IMG/VR virus record: IMGVR_UViG_3300045988_073112
From: a virus
Length of the DNA: 64,000 bases
Strand: one strand, 5' to 3'
Shown: positions 34,984 through 36,713 of the stretch, in pieces
Layout: each line of letters starts with the position of its first letter
Position numbering within the stretch: the stretch's first letter is position 1
The notes under the pieces: generated by a model
The model's input: only the letters and a program-made list of their open reading frames with translations
What the model was told of the DNA's origin: nothing
The model's database searches: none
Position numbers and translations under genes: made by a program

Positions 34984-36390
34984 TTGGCGGATAATGCTCA
35001 AGTTATTTGGGATTATCTCAAATCAAAAGGATTAAGTAACTGCGGCGCCGCAGGTCTAATGGGGAATCTATTCGCGGAAAGTGGACTTATTCCAACTAAC
35101 TTATAGAACTCATATGAGAGCAAGTTAGGAATGAACGATGCCTCGTATACTGCGGCTGTTGATAATGGCTCCTATACCAATTTCACGCATGATTCTGCTG
35201 GATATGGTTTAGCTCAATGGACATATTGGAGCCGCAAGCAAGGTCTGTTTTAGCTGTGCAAAAGTCGAGGAAAGTCTATTGGTGACTTGAACACTCAACT
35301 AGATTTTTTATATCAGGAACTAACTACAAGTTATTCCTAGCTATTAAAAATCTTGAAGACTACCTCATCTGTTGAAGAAGCATCTAATTTAGTGGTCACT
35401 CAATTTGAAAGACCGGTAGATCAAAGCTTTGATGCACTAAAACAACGTGCTTTATATAGTCAACGTTACTTCAATACTTATTCAACGCAAAAGGAGGAAA
35501 TGGCTAAGATGAAATATTCAAACGCCAATCAACCATTGGTTTGCATGATGACCAATAGTACCTGTTATAAGCAAACCCGTAAAATGGATATTAAAGGTGT
35601 ACTCTGGCATAGTACAGGCGCCAATAATAAAACTATTAAACGTTATGTCCAACCATCTGAGAATGATAAAAATTATCAATCTCTGATTGCTAAAATTGGT
35701 AAAAATACCAGTAGAACCGATTGGAATCATAGCTCGTAGCAAGCAGGCGTAAACGCTTGGATTGGTGCTCTTGCAGATGGAAGCGTAGCCGCGGTACAAA
35801 CGTTGCCTTGGAATTATAGACCTTGGGGCTGCGGCTCAGGCCCTAAAGGTAGTTGTAATACTGGATGGATTCAATTTGAAATTTGCGAAGACAATCTAAG
35901 TGACCCCAACTACTTCGCTAAAGTCTACAAAGAGGCTTGCGAATTGACCGCCTACTTATGTAAGACATATAATATCAATCCAAATGGTTCTGTAAATGTA
36001 AATGGCGTAATAGTCCCAACTATTCTTTGCCATCAGGATAGTTATCAGCTTGGTCTTGGCAGTAATCATGCCGATGTATACCACTGGTTCAAGAAATATG
36101 GCAAAGATATGGCAACTGTCCGCAAAGATGTTGCTGCTTTAATGCAGTCTAAAGTTATCGAGGAGGATGATGAAGACATGACTCAAGAGAAATTCAACGA
36201 AATGATGAATGTATATTTAAGCCAGCTTGCTGCACAACCAGTTACTTGGGAACAAGATGCAATGACTTGGGCACAAGCTAATGGCTTAATCAATGGCAAT
36301 GAAAAGGGCCAATTAATGCCAAAGCGTTTTATGACTCGTGGTGAATTTGCAGCCGTTCTAAAACGTTATGCTGAAAAGAGTGGTCAATAA
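34984..36390 (+). CDS. endolysin: phage tail-lysozyme-type domain, then amidase_2 (zinc N-acetylmuramoyl-L-alanine amidase), then a C-terminal SLH cell-wall-binding domain; four in-frame TAG codons (35104, 35251, 35338, 35737)
   Basis: TTG start with RBS GGAGGTGAGG. Track ORFs 35353..35739 and 35803..36390 are one frame. NCGAAGLMGNLFAESGLIPTNL[TAG]NSYESKLGMNDASYTAAVDNGSY matches the ..NLQNSYE.. lysozyme motif. The amidase core runs WIQFEICEDN..CHQDS. The SLH tail is NGNEKGQLMPKRFMTRGEFAAVLKRY. Confidence 0.7.
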
Positions 36391-36713
36391 TGACTCGTCA
36401 AACAAGAGGGAAAAGAAGACACAACTAGAAGAGAGAATTTTCTAAACAACTTATTTGCGATATTCGCTCTTTATTGTGGATTGTAACTATCTCTGGTATT
36501 GCTCTTGCTTTCTATTGCGTACATCTCGGTTATTTAGGCACTCTTCCATGGATTAGTGCATTAGTAGGATTGCCATGGTCTGCGCATGGTATTGTTTGCT
36601 CTTTTTACTTAAACATGAGTAAATCCGATCACCGCAAGGGTGGGATTACTTATGATTTAGCTATGTGTGAGAAACAATAGCAGCAAGTAGTCGAGGATGA
36701 AGCAACCATTTAA
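36390..36713 (+). CDS. holin-like two-TM membrane protein with a charged C-terminus; two in-frame TAG codons (36426, 36678)
   Basis: ATG overlaps the endolysin TAA (TAATG). Two TM segments (LLWIVTISGIALAFYCVHLGYL; LPWISALVGLPWSAHGIVCSFYL). The C-terminus reads ..CEKQ[TAG]QQVVEDEATI to TAA 36711. Track ORF 36474..36680 is the TTG-start, TAG-stop sub-fragment. Confidence 0.5.

What the first reader, a model, noticed from the sequence alone, without database searches (positions are those of the whole stretch)
34984..36713. Lysis cassette (SLH-anchored endolysin plus overlapping holin) is gated by six in-frame TAGs
The endolysin carries four TAGs and the holin-like gene two, one at codon 13 and one at its C-terminal charged tail. 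Early replication enzymes nearby have none or one. This fits the proposal that a phage-supplied suppressor tRNA acts as a timer licensing late and lysis gene translation. The SLH and amidase architecture also points to a host with an SLH-binding secondary cell-wall polymer.
Basis: partly seen in the sequence, partly recalled or inferred. Interest (0 to 1): 0.8.

Follow-up and report, generated by a model that had tools for sequence, protein, structure and literature searches.

The report
Amber-recoded phage lysis genes (TAG = glutamine)
The cell-bursting genes of this human-gut phage contain six TAG "stop" codons that are really read as glutamine by a phage-supplied tRNA, a real and well-supported case of an already described way in which phages may hold back late genes.

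Summary
The endolysin ORF (34984-36390) has four in-frame TAGs. The overlapping 107-codon membrane-protein gene (36390-36713) has two, at codons 13 and 97.

The TAGs lie inside Pfam domains, not between them. They are conserved in many independent assemblies. They swap with CAG/CAA in relatives and sit at invariant Gln columns, so TAG = Gln (code 15).

The window comes from a ~147-kb SPbeta/EF1-like siphophage of gut Oscillospiraceae. Its amber-suppressor tRNA(CUA) lies about 2.8 kb upstream of the window.

TAG density is strongly non-uniform:
- 17 replication/nucleotide genes: 0.5 per 1000 codons.
- Lysis cassette: 10.4 per 1000.
- 49-kb virion arm: 11.5 per 1000.

They are not specially enriched, however. 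TAG positions drift between lineages. A third of virion-arm genes, including one PHROG-annotated virion structural protein and the position-inferred capsid and tail-tube candidates, have no TAG. RecJ, a GIY-YIG endonuclease and RuvC are TAG-rich. The suppressor tRNA sits behind a strong host-type promoter.

The "timer" idea is the published Borges et al. hypothesis. It is compatible with the data but unproven here. This is a new member of a known kind.

The parts
34928..34960 (+). Intrinsic-terminator-like hairpin (11 bp, 7 GC) plus T-run, between the PhoH stop and the endolysin ribosome-binding site
   Evidence: terminator scan. (-22 kcal/mol, z = -6.2). A hairpin plus T-run occupies the same position, with different sequence, in L118, L119 and L120.
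34971..34975 (+). Shine-Dalgarno GGAGG, 8 nt before the TTG start
   Evidence: Sequence. The equivalent start is ATG in L118 and L119.
34984..36390 (+). Endolysin gene, 468 codons: Phage_lysozyme2 + Amidase_2 + one SLH-like repeat. It can be translated only if TAG is read as sense.
   Evidence: Pfam. (PHROG endolysin families phrog_20388 and phrog_15001). (homologues). (uninterrupted standard-code homologues in Oscillospiraceae genomes).
35104..35106 (+). TAG 1 (codon 41), inside the lysozyme domain, at the NL-Q-NSYE column
   Evidence: Gln is invariant in the four standard-code homologues L133-L136.
35251..35253 (+). TAG 2 (codon 90), inside the lysozyme domain
   Evidence: The column is variable in homologues.
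35338..35340 (+). TAG 3 (codon 119), inside the lysozyme domain
   Evidence: TAG also occurs at this column in L119 and L120.
35737..35739 (+). TAG 4 (codon 252), inside the amidase domain
36390..36713 (+). Holin-like gene, 107 codons. It has a basic N-terminus (net +7 over the first 20 residues), two hydrophobic stretches (about residues 28-50 and 52-74) and a charged C-terminal tail. Its ATG overlaps the endolysin TAA (TAATG).
   Evidence: hydropathy. Homologues lie directly after homologous endolysins in L118-L120, in Dulem virus 33 and in Oscillospiraceae genomes L134/L135. No Pfam, PHROG or NCBIfam holin family matches.
36426..36428 (+). TAG at codon 13 of the holin-like gene, before the first hydrophobic stretch
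   Evidence: Relatives have a TAG at nearby but not identical positions.
36678..36680 (+). TAG at codon 97 of the holin-like gene. The tail after it is conserved as coding sequence and ends ...TI, GI or KI in all homologues.
36718..36763 (+). Intrinsic-terminator-like hairpin (16 bp) plus T-run, directly after the holin-like gene
   Evidence: (-24.6 kcal/mol, z = -6.5). Conserved in L118-L120.
36767..36795 (+). Sigma70-type promoter with extended -10 (TTGATT-17-TG-n-TATTAT) for the TAG-free RNase H-GyrB-GyrA genes. It marks the downstream edge of the cassette.
   Evidence: The sequence is conserved in L118-L120.

Best explanation
The window is part of a ~147-kb SPbeta/EF1-like siphophage of human-gut Oscillospiraceae. 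The phage uses genetic code 15 (TAG = glutamine) in roughly a third of its genes.

The endolysin is a muramidase-like domain, an amidase and an SLH-like wall-binding repeat. Together with the translationally coupled two-helix membrane protein behind it, it forms a lysis cassette that sits, bracketed by terminators, inside the replication arm of the genome.

Shown:
- Neither protein can be completed under the host's standard code. Ribosomes would stop at codon 41 of the endolysin and codon 13 of the small gene.
- The phage carries its own tRNA(CUA).
- TAG behaves evolutionarily as a Gln codon.
- TAG is almost absent from replication enzymes and is common in virion and lysis genes.

Inferred:
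- Production of lysis proteins is conditional on the phage suppressor tRNA out-competing host release factor 1. This keeps lysis proteins from being made from leaky or early transcripts.
- The small gene starts on the endolysin stop codon, so premature termination in the endolysin should also starve it of ribosomes.
- Genes with 10-26 TAGs (portal, tape measure) must be made, so late read-through has to be efficient (above about 90% per codon). The block therefore works more like an on/off licence than a fine throttle.
- Timing is probably shared with transcriptional control at the flanking terminators.
For: TAGs and reading frame:
- TAGs lie inside domains and the reading frame is continuous.
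- The same TAGs appear in independent assemblies of 144-149-kb contigs.

TAG = Gln:
- 33 of 38 TAG/sense differences (counted per locus and site) between close relatives are with CAG or CAA, including two-step TAG/CAA changes.
- TAG sits at invariant Gln columns (NLQN, AQW, RKQ, IQFEICED, VQT) in endolysins 63-72% identical and in standard-code homologues.

Suppressor tRNA:
- tRNA(CUA) is at L009 4173-4263 in the same tRNA array, about 2.8 kb upstream of the window.
- It scores 54.5 bits against the Rfam tRNA model.
- It has U1/U72 unpaired, G73, G10 and U35. From my own knowledge of E. coli GlnRS recognition, these fit a Gln identity.

TAG density:
- Replication set 0.51 per 1000 codons, lysis 10.4, late arm 11.5. 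Lysis against replication: odds ratio 12.4, p = 3.6e-4.
- Pol III alpha has 53 Gln codons and GyrA 27, with no TAG, although they use CAA freely.
- In three further lineages the endolysin (4-7 TAG) and the small gene (1-4 TAG) sit next to TAG-free RNase H, GyrB and GyrA.
- The base after TAG is A-enriched and T-depleted (chi-squared p = 7e-4). From my own knowledge of E. coli context effects, this favours read-through.

Cassette and host:
- Terminators bracket the cassette in all four lineages.
- The endolysin plus small membrane gene is a conserved pair in standard-code phages and prophages.
- The closest bacterial hits are in Oscillospiraceae.

Literature:
- The model is the one published by Borges et al..
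- Code 15 has been shown by metaproteomics in crAss-like phages (PMC9523058 abstract).
Against: - The lysis genes are no more TAG-rich than the average late gene (p = 0.25).
- TAG positions are not conserved between lineages.
- TAGs show no N-terminal bias (KS p = 0.26). This is what neutral use of a permitted synonymous codon would also give.
- 13 of 39 late-arm genes lack TAG and prefer CAG. They include a PHROG 'virion structural protein' and the probable capsid protein, so 'late' does not equal 'recoded'.
- TAG-bearing window genes have lower GC3 (0.32 against 0.40) and a general preference for A-ending codons. Composition therefore explains part of the pattern.
- The suppressor tRNA lies about 115 nt behind a strong sigma70-type extended -10 promoter. 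The same kind precedes the TAG-free RNase H-gyrase genes, though two window copies precede TAG-bearing genes (32868, 43188). Nothing indicates that the tRNA appears late.
- No release factor, aminoacyl-tRNA synthetase or RF1 inhibitor was seen in the roughly 125 kb examined.
- The holin function is unproven, and a TAG-free LL-H-like holin candidate exists in the late arm.
- No expression data exist.
Confidence: 0.6

Rival explanations
1. Licence, not lock. TAG is simply one of three synonymous Gln codons. It is tolerated in any gene that is translated only after the suppressor is abundant, and it accumulates there by drift (CAG to TAG under AT pressure). The timing of lysis is set by transcription, through the terminators and a non-sigma70 late promoter or antitermination. 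The TAGs are a consequence of late expression, not its cause.
For: - TAG positions differ between lineages while only their presence is conserved.
- With about 25% TAG among Gln codons, a gene with 31 Gln codons will almost always carry several.
- There is no enrichment over other late genes and no positional bias.
- TAG correlates with low GC3 and a CAA preference.
- CAG/TAG swaps are frequent even among about 97%-identical genomes, and they appear in PhoH in L004 and L118.
- Terminators bracket the cassette, and no sigma70-type promoter precedes it.
Against: - Replication genes that use CAA freely still have no TAG. Selection against TAG in early genes is therefore real, and the converse dependence of the lysis genes on the suppressor follows mechanically, whatever its origin.
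- The +4 context bias of TAG suggests selection on decoding.
- Two sigma70-type promoters precede TAG-bearing genes (32868, 43188). Transcription class and TAG class therefore do not coincide perfectly.
Confidence: 0.35
2. Dosage throttle. TAG is a slow or leaky codon because RF1 competes with the suppressor. The number of TAGs tunes the yield of each protein. Abundant virion proteins avoid it. Low-copy proteins and potentially toxic ones (lysis proteins, nucleases, homing endonucleases) carry it to keep their levels low throughout infection.
For: - The TAG-free late genes are those that prefer CAG. They include the PHROG virion structural protein and the likely capsid protein.
- The TAG-richest genes are a GIY-YIG endonuclease (12 TAGs in 305 codons), a RuvC-like resolvase (8 in 159) and a resolvase.
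- The suppressor tRNA has an early-type promoter.
Against: - The tape-measure gene has 26 TAGs and the portal gene 10. Any sizeable loss per codon would abolish them (0.9^26 = 6%).
- This does not explain why low-copy replication enzymes have no TAG.
Confidence: 0.15
3. The TAGs are genuine stops. The region would then be a decayed endolysin pseudogene or a string of separate small genes (lysozyme, amidase and SLH pieces), and the small gene would start after its first TAG.
For: Under the standard code the region breaks into ORFs of 40-195 codons. A TTG at 36474 could start a 68-codon product.
Against: - The pieces cut through Pfam domains.
- The sequence after each TAG is conserved at protein level over 63-72% identity.
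- TAGs sit at invariant Gln columns.
- The same architecture is one ORF in standard-code relatives.
- The N-terminal (D/E)FSK motif upstream of 36474 is conserved in all homologues of the small gene.
- A tRNA(CUA) is present.
Confidence: 0.01
4. TAG is decoded as an amino acid other than Gln, for example Ser. The suppressor tRNA carries a long extra arm and G73, which are features of type II tRNAs.
For: - The tRNA(CUA) is 91 nt long, with a hairpin of about 4 bp in the variable region.
- SerRS reads the extra arm and not the anticodon (my own knowledge).
- One TAG site reads TCA in two relatives.
Against: - 33 of 38 swaps are with CAG or CAA.
- TAG sits at invariant Gln positions.
- The D arm and anticodon arm are identical to those of short-armed CUA tRNAs in other phage contigs.
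- The extra stem is only 3-4 bp.
Confidence: 0.03

Closest known systems
Stop-codon-recoded (code 15, TAG = Gln) gut phages, as surveyed by Borges et al. [quoted passage not shown]
   Same: - A standard-code host is predicted.
- The phage encodes tRNA(CUA).
- In-frame TAGs occur in structural and lysis genes.
- Use in DNA-replication genes is variable or absent.
- The lysis genes can form a separate recoded module away from the structural genes.
- A homing endonuclease is heavily recoded. In the Agate phages this involves TGA.
   Different: - The lysis genes here are not preferentially recoded relative to other late genes, unlike the crAss-like amidase and spanin.
- No release factor or synthetase was found in the part examined.
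- The suppressor tRNA carries an extra arm.
- Clade membership (terminase phylogeny) could not be tested with these tools.
phAss-1 / proposed 'Phassvirus' and its wider EF1/SPbeta-like group (Babkin et al. 2023, PMC10607447)
   Same: - Human-gut siphophage of 133-138 kb, with about 30-36 tRNAs.
- Very long tape-measure gene.
- TAG = Gln in about 28% of ORFs, including the holin, terminase and portal.
- A Clostridia (Oscillospiraceae-like) host is predicted.
- Related to Enterococcus phage EF1. Our Pol III alpha is 40% identical to that of EF1 and 39% to that of SPbeta.
   Different: - No nucleotide similarity to phAss-1 in the 7 kb tested.
- The endolysin and the small gene have no phAss-1 hit.
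- The phAss-1 Sup-CTA tRNA annotated in the stretch examined is 74 nt long and unrelated in sequence.
- This genome is 144-149 kb.
Standard-code Oscillospiraceae (pro)phage lysis cassettes: L133-L136, Dulem virus 33 (PP511792), Faecalibacterium phage Lagaffe, Acutalibacter phage Fontainebleau
   Same: - L133-L136 have the same lysozyme2 + amidase_2 + SLH-like endolysin. Dulem virus 33 has the amidase and SLH-like part. The Lagaffe and Fontainebleau phages match only the lysozyme2 part.
- In L134, L135 and Dulem virus 33 a homologous small two-helix membrane gene follows the endolysin, abutting or overlapping it.
   Different: These have no TAG in either gene. The window's cassette is the recoded version and is located in the replication arm.
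Classical amber suppression (supE-type tRNA-Gln CUA) and holin-endolysin lysis timing in lambda and T4
   Same: - The anticodon is CUA.
- Gln is inserted.
- Suppression competes with RF1.
- A small membrane protein plus a wall hydrolase act as the lysis pair.
   Different: - Here suppression is a built-in part of the phage gene-expression programme and not a host mutation.
- Gene order is endolysin first.
- The membrane protein belongs to no described holin family.

Membership tests
Code-15 (TAG = Gln) recoded phage | In-frame TAGs inside conserved protein domains, with the frame continuing to a TAA or TGA | tested here: met
   There are 35 TAGs in 14 of 71 window genes.
Code-15 (TAG = Gln) recoded phage | TAG aligns with Gln in homologues | tested here: met
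   (33 of 38 swaps are with CAG or CAA). (invariant Gln columns, including in standard-code homologues).
Code-15 (TAG = Gln) recoded phage | Phage-encoded suppressor tRNA with anticodon CUA | tested here: met
   The tRNA is at L007 2880-2970, L008 3679-3769 and L009 4173-4263, outside the window. None is found inside the window.
Code-15 (TAG = Gln) recoded phage | TAG not used as a terminator | tested here: inconclusive
   All 70 called window genes end in TAA (55) or TGA (15), but the caller treated TAG as sense by construction. The tails after C-terminal TAGs are conserved for the small gene.
Code-15 (TAG = Gln) recoded phage | Direct evidence of Gln insertion at TAG (peptides) | not testable with these tools
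   This needs metaproteomics, as in PMC9523058.
Borges-type 'lysis genes preferentially recoded' | The lysis gene family uses TAG significantly more than CAA/CAG, relative to other genes of the same phage | tested here: not met
   Lysis 6 of 38 Gln codons (15.8%) against late arm 179 of 724 (24.7%), Fisher p = 0.25. In relatives the endolysin values are 7/29, 6/30 and 4/24.
Borges-type early-standard / late-recoded partition | Replication genes (near-)free of TAG, structural and lysis genes recoded | tested here: met
   0.51 against 10.4 and 11.5 TAG per 1000 codons. The exceptions are noted elsewhere: RecJ, NrdD, GIY-YIG and RuvC are TAG-bearing, and 13 late genes are TAG-free.
Phage endolysin (Phage_lysozyme2 + Amidase_2) | Domain matches above the curated cut-offs | tested here: met
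   107.1 bits (cut-off 28.2) and 47.7 bits (cut-off 26). The PHROG endolysin family phrog_20388 scores 2.8e-63.
SLH-domain wall anchoring | SLH motif present | tested here: met
   PF00395 scores 29.9 bits against a cut-off of 20.8, at residues 419-456.
SLH-domain wall anchoring | Three tandem SLH repeats forming the polymer-binding module (my own knowledge of the family) | tested here: not met
   Only one matched stretch is found. More distant homologues carry no precomputed SLH hit.
Holin | Small protein with transmembrane helices and charged termini, encoded next to the endolysin | tested here: met
   The pairing with homologous endolysins is conserved.
Holin | Membership of a described holin family | tested here: not met
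   There is no Pfam, PHROG or NCBIfam match, even at E = 10 for NCBIfam.
Holin | Membrane permeabilisation that releases the endolysin | not testable with these tools
   This needs expression and lysis assays.
Phassvirus (phAss-1-like genus) | Nucleotide identity of about 80% or more and shared gene content with OQ749652 | tested here: not met
   No blastn hit to OQ749652, and no tblastn hit for the endolysin or the small gene.

The most novel reading that the evidence does not exclude
The phage may carry a compact 'code-switch and ribosome-rescue' toolkit at the head of its early arm. It would consist of three parts:
- an amber-suppressor tRNA that has acquired an extra hairpin arm, with a covarying stem, which is absent from its short-armed homologues in other phages;
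- an ArfA-like 50-residue peptide containing KGKGSYSRKQKHK;
- a phage tmRNA.

The suppressor tRNA sits behind a strong host-type promoter. The tmRNA and ArfA-like ORF lie about 2-3 kb downstream in the same array, but I did not look for promoters in front of them. In this reading amber suppression is switched on early and globally. The rescue factors would cope with the ribosomes that then run off the ends of host messages. TAG would act as a graded filter that separates three gene classes (early: none; abundant virion proteins: none; all other late, lysis and nuclease genes: many) and not as a late timer.
Probability: 0.15. Interest if true: 0.65.

Novelty: new member of a known kind. Interest (0 to 1): 0.35.

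Why it matters
- It adds a very common human-gut phage lineage to the set of code-15 phages. The exact GyrB sequence is indexed in 67 blocks of the assembly collection, and full genomes of 144-149 kb are found.
- It supplies a clean internal comparison. A recoded lysis cassette is embedded among TAG-free replication genes, and standard-code versions of the same cassette exist in related prophages.
- It shows that the simple rule 'late genes are recoded' needs refinement. The probable abundant virion proteins avoid TAG, nucleases are the most recoded genes, and the suppressor looks early-expressed.
- In practice, gene callers that use the standard code will shatter about a third of this phage's genes. 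Some PHROG families that match the two halves of the probable terminase may be such fragments.
- Endolysins mined from such phages need TAG-to-CAA conversion before expression.

Tried and rejected
- **Close annotated relatives.** blastn of 33000-40000 against GenBank phages gave only two short weak hits.
- **Relation to phAss-1.** No relation was found.
- **Family of the small gene.** Pfam, PHROGs and NCBIfam gave nothing.
- **Labelling capsid, terminase and tail genes.** Pfam gave nothing. PHROGs named only the portal, one 'virion structural protein' and tail proteins. 'Capsid' and 'terminase' are therefore inferred from position.
- **Suppressor tRNA inside the window.** None is present. The odd tRNA at 4383-4456 has an 8-nt loop 'taaa', not CUA.
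- **N-terminal bias of TAG.** A lock might be expected to show one, but none was found.
- **Promoter for the cassette.** No sigma70-type promoter lies between the upstream terminator and the endolysin start. A weak match at 34891-34918 lies before the hairpin.
- **Are terminators special to TAG islands?** No. About 17 intergenic terminator-like hairpins occur along the early arm.
- **Independent-gene and pseudogene readings.** Both rejected (see rival explanations).
- **Release factor or synthetase genes.** None was seen in the roughly 125 kb examined.
- **Not used.** Structure prediction and fold search were left unused because Pfam already settled the domain question.
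Full report
**1. The observation**

Reading 34984-36392 in frame gives one 468-codon ORF interrupted only by TAG, at codons 41, 90, 119 and 252 (window 35104, 35251, 35338, 35737). It ends at TAA 36388-36390. The next ORF starts at ATG 36390, so the two genes share the motif TAATG. It runs to TAA 36711-36713, with TAG at codons 13 and 97.

With TAG read through, Pfam finds three domains:
- a full-length Phage_lysozyme2 domain (residues 3-165, 107 bits);
- Amidase_2 (residues 200-351, 47.7 bits);
- one SLH repeat (residues 419-456, 29.9 bits).

Three TAGs are inside the first domain and one inside the second. 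The pieces between TAGs therefore cannot be independent domain genes. The start is TTG 34984, 8 nt after GGAGG. Relatives have ATG at the same place.

**2. Not an artefact, and what TAG means**

The exact GyrB protein of the window is indexed in 67 blocks of the assembly collection. It occurs on contigs from human-gut metagenomes of up to 144-149 kb. All six TAGs are present in five independent assemblies, and a sixth carries five of them.

Among these near relatives I found 38 TAG/sense differences, counted per locus and site. Of these, 33 pair TAG with CAG or CAA, including TAG/CAA pairs that need two changes.

Three more distant lineages have endolysins 63-72% identical. Their endolysins have 4-7 TAGs at mostly different positions, several at Gln columns that are invariant across the family (A-Q-W, I-Q-FEICED, V-Q-T, RK-Q). 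Standard-code homologues in cultured or binned Oscillospiraceae genomes have Gln at the window's first TAG (NL-Q-NSYE). They encode the whole three-part enzyme as one uninterrupted ORF. TAG is therefore a Gln codon (code 15).

**3. The suppressor tRNA**

ARAGORN finds 16 tRNAs and a tmRNA in the window but no CUA anticodon. Fetching the flank of the same phage shows that the tRNA array continues upstream. It contains a tRNA(CUA) about 2.8 kb before window position 1 (L009 4173-4263, with copies in L007 and L008). It scores 54.5 bits against the Rfam tRNA model.

The tRNA is 91 nt long because of a hairpin of about 16 nt inserted in the variable region. Other phage contigs carry CUA tRNAs with an identical D arm and anticodon arm. 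Some of these have a normal short variable loop. Others have the long arm with covarying stems.

A consensus-like sigma70 promoter with extended -10 (TTGAAA-17-TGATATAAT) lies about 115 nt upstream of the tRNA. The same promoter type precedes operons of the early arm. None lies in an intergenic region of the four late-arm loci scanned, about 40 kb in all.

**4. Genome context**

By walking along IMG/VR contig 3300045988_054378 (148,373 bp; window position = contig position - 4493) I recovered the whole late arm. The genome has two arms:
- a plus-strand arm with the tRNAs, replication and nucleotide-metabolism genes, and the lysis cassette;
- a 49-kb minus-strand arm.

The minus-strand arm holds the probable terminase, the portal (phrog_2739, E = 4e-83), head and tail genes, a 2902-codon tape-measure gene, and baseplate and fibre genes.

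Pol III alpha is 40% identical to that of Enterococcus phage EF1 and 39% to that of SPbeta. YorF- and YorH-like genes are present.

**5.

| Gene set | Codons | TAG | TAG per 1000 codons | TAG as % of Gln codons |
|---|---|---|---|---|
| 17 replication/nucleotide genes | 7779 | 4 | 0.51 | 1.5 |
| Lysis cassette | 577 | 6 | 10.4 | 15.8 |
| 39 late-arm genes | 15,522 | 179 | 11.5 | 24.7 |

Lysis against replication gives an odds ratio of 12.4 (p = 3.6e-4). Lysis against the late arm gives p = 0.25. Density is therefore far from uniform, and the cassette groups with the late genes.

Pol III alpha (53 Gln codons), GyrA (27), GyrB and DnaB have no TAG although they use CAA freely. The absence is therefore not just codon bias.

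The partition holds in three further lineages. The endolysin and the small gene always carry TAG. RNase H, GyrB and GyrA never do. PhoH carries six in one lineage.

**6. Complications for the timer reading**

- The cassette is not enriched over other late genes, unlike the crAss-like case in Borges et al..
- TAG positions drift between lineages, and TAGs are spread evenly along genes.
- 13 of 39 late-arm genes have no TAG and strongly prefer CAG. They include a PHROG 'virion structural protein' and the 342-codon probable capsid gene.
- The TAG-richest genes are a GIY-YIG endonuclease (12), a RuvC-like resolvase (8), a serine-recombinase-like gene and RecJ (3).
- TAG-bearing window genes have lower GC3 and a general preference for A-ending codons.
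- The suppressor has an early-type promoter.
- The cassette sits between two strong terminator-like hairpins that are conserved in position in all four lineages. No sigma70-type promoter lies in front of it. Such hairpins are common along this arm.

On the other side, the base after TAG is A-enriched and T-depleted relative to CAA and CAG (p = 7e-4). This hints at selection on decoding.

A simple calculation bears on efficiency. With 26 TAGs in the tape-measure gene, read-through of 90% per codon would leave only about 6% full-length product (0.9^26), so per-codon read-through late in infection has to be high, at or above about 90%.

**7. The 'holin'**

The small protein has a basic N-terminus, two hydrophobic stretches and a charged tail. 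Homologues sit directly after homologous endolysins in several places:
- the three recoded lineages;
- the standard-code Dulem virus 33, with 65% identity over the hydrophobic core and no TAG;
- Oscillospiraceae genomes L134 and L135.

This supports a lysis role. However, it matches no Pfam, PHROG or NCBIfam family. A TAG-free 127-codon protein in the late arm has a sub-threshold match to the LL-H holin family (22.6 bits against a cut-off of 24.9). Which of the two is the holin is open.

**8. Host and the SLH inference**

The best bacterial matches to the endolysin are in Oscillospiraceae, Acutalibacteraceae and related Clostridia. Among phage matches, the N-terminal domain is 55% identical to Faecalibacterium phage Lagaffe and 53% to an Acutalibacter phage. 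The amidase part matches Evtepia and Oscillospiraceae phages.

The C-terminal motif is a single SLH repeat. From my own knowledge, SLH modules that bind pyruvylated wall polymers normally have three repeats. The inference about the host polymer is therefore weak.

**9. Comparison with what is known**

Code 15 has been confirmed by metaproteomics in crAss-like phages (PMC9523058). A related but distinct group of EF1-like code-15 gut phages (phAss-1) has been described, with TAG in the holin, terminase and portal. This window is a new lineage of that known kind. I could not place it in a named clade, because that needs a terminase phylogeny.

**10. Verdict**

- It is shown that the lysis proteins cannot be made without amber suppression, and that they belong to the suppressor-dependent gene class.
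- It remains a plausible but untested inference that the TAGs act as a timer specific to lysis. A neutral 'permitted codon' rival and a 'dosage' rival are both live.

Interest is modest. The side observations below are the most novel leads.

Noticed in passing
L009 4173-4263 (also L007 2880-2970 and L008 3679-3769); about 2.8 kb upstream of window position 1: The amber-suppressor tRNA(CUA) has a type-I D arm, but a hairpin of about 16 nt is inserted in the variable region, giving 91 nt in all. U1 and U72 are mismatched and the discriminator is G73. Homologous CUA tRNAs in other IMG/VR phage contigs come in short-armed forms (L126, L128-L131) and long-armed forms (L124, L125, L127), and the long-arm stems covary.
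   Followed up: partly
window 50-395, and L009 6404-6556 (about 400 nt upstream of the window start): The phage encodes a tmRNA (tag DNNYFDSHMAA; Rfam 100 bits). Just before it lies a 50-codon ORF whose C-terminus (AKKGKGSYSRKQKHK) matches the ArfA ribosome-rescue factor at 24.6 bits, just under the 25.5 cut-off. Both are in the same array as the suppressor tRNA and may be a rescue kit for the ribosomes that amber suppression sends off message ends.
   Followed up: partly
whole window and the late arm (contig 054378, positions 71.4-120.5 kb; loci L027, L057, L079, L115, L212): There are two codon regimes for Gln. Most TAG-free genes prefer CAG (for example 31256-32752 has 33 CAG and 0 CAA), although the large replication enzymes use CAA and CAG about equally. 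TAG-bearing genes prefer CAA and have lower GC3. The probable capsid, tail-tube and other likely abundant virion proteins are TAG-free.
   Followed up: yes
window 43797-44714: A GIY-YIG (homing-endonuclease-like) gene has an N-terminal hydrophobic and coiled-coil region. It carries 12 TAGs in 305 codons, the densest in the window, and starts right after a terminator-like hairpin (T-run at 43789). CAG/CAA/TAG swaps between close relatives are frequent here.
   Followed up: partly
window 54083-54847 and 715-1575: Two further wall-hydrolase-like genes are present. One is a second Phage_lysozyme2 protein with an N-terminal signal or lipoprotein-like sequence (LSLCGC) and 1 TAG. The other is an NAGPA plus SPOR-domain protein with 2 TAGs, embedded in the tRNA array.
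   Followed up: no
L011 19416-19799 (minus strand; about 9.7 kb beyond the window end): A TAG-free 127-codon protein has an N-terminal hydrophobic helix and a sub-threshold match to the LL-H holin family (PF09682, 22.6 bits against a cut-off of 24.9). It is an alternative holin candidate. Standard-code relatives L133 and L136 have a similar gene just after their endolysin and small membrane gene.
   Followed up: partly
window 10321-10407, 1642-1715 and 4383-4456: Three unusual tRNAs are present: an 87-nt tRNA-Cys(GCA) with a long variable arm, a tRNA with anticodon ACA, and a tRNA-like gene with an 8-nt anticodon loop ('taaa') directly after a tRNA-Met.
   Followed up: no
window 1572, 2032, 12151, 32868, 36767, 43188, 46389 and 48863; L009 2141 and 4025: A family of near-consensus sigma70 promoters with extended -10 (TTGAnn-17-TGnTAnnAT) recurs, often followed by ATATTTATAGAAA. 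It punctuates the plus-strand arm. No intergenic copy is found in the four late-arm loci scanned (about 40 kb).
   Followed up: partly
L212 6711-8450 (probable terminase large subunit): The 579-codon gene with 9 TAGs matches two separate PHROG families of 'unknown function', one over its N-terminal half and one over its C-terminal half (phrog_15503 and phrog_24618). These families may have been built from TAG-split fragments called under the standard code.
   Followed up: no
window 27964-28794 and 31256-32752: The phage encodes a Thg1-like protein (tRNA-His guanylyltransferase family) and a 498-codon Band_7/flotillin-like protein that uses CAG exclusively for Gln (33 of 33).
   Followed up: no
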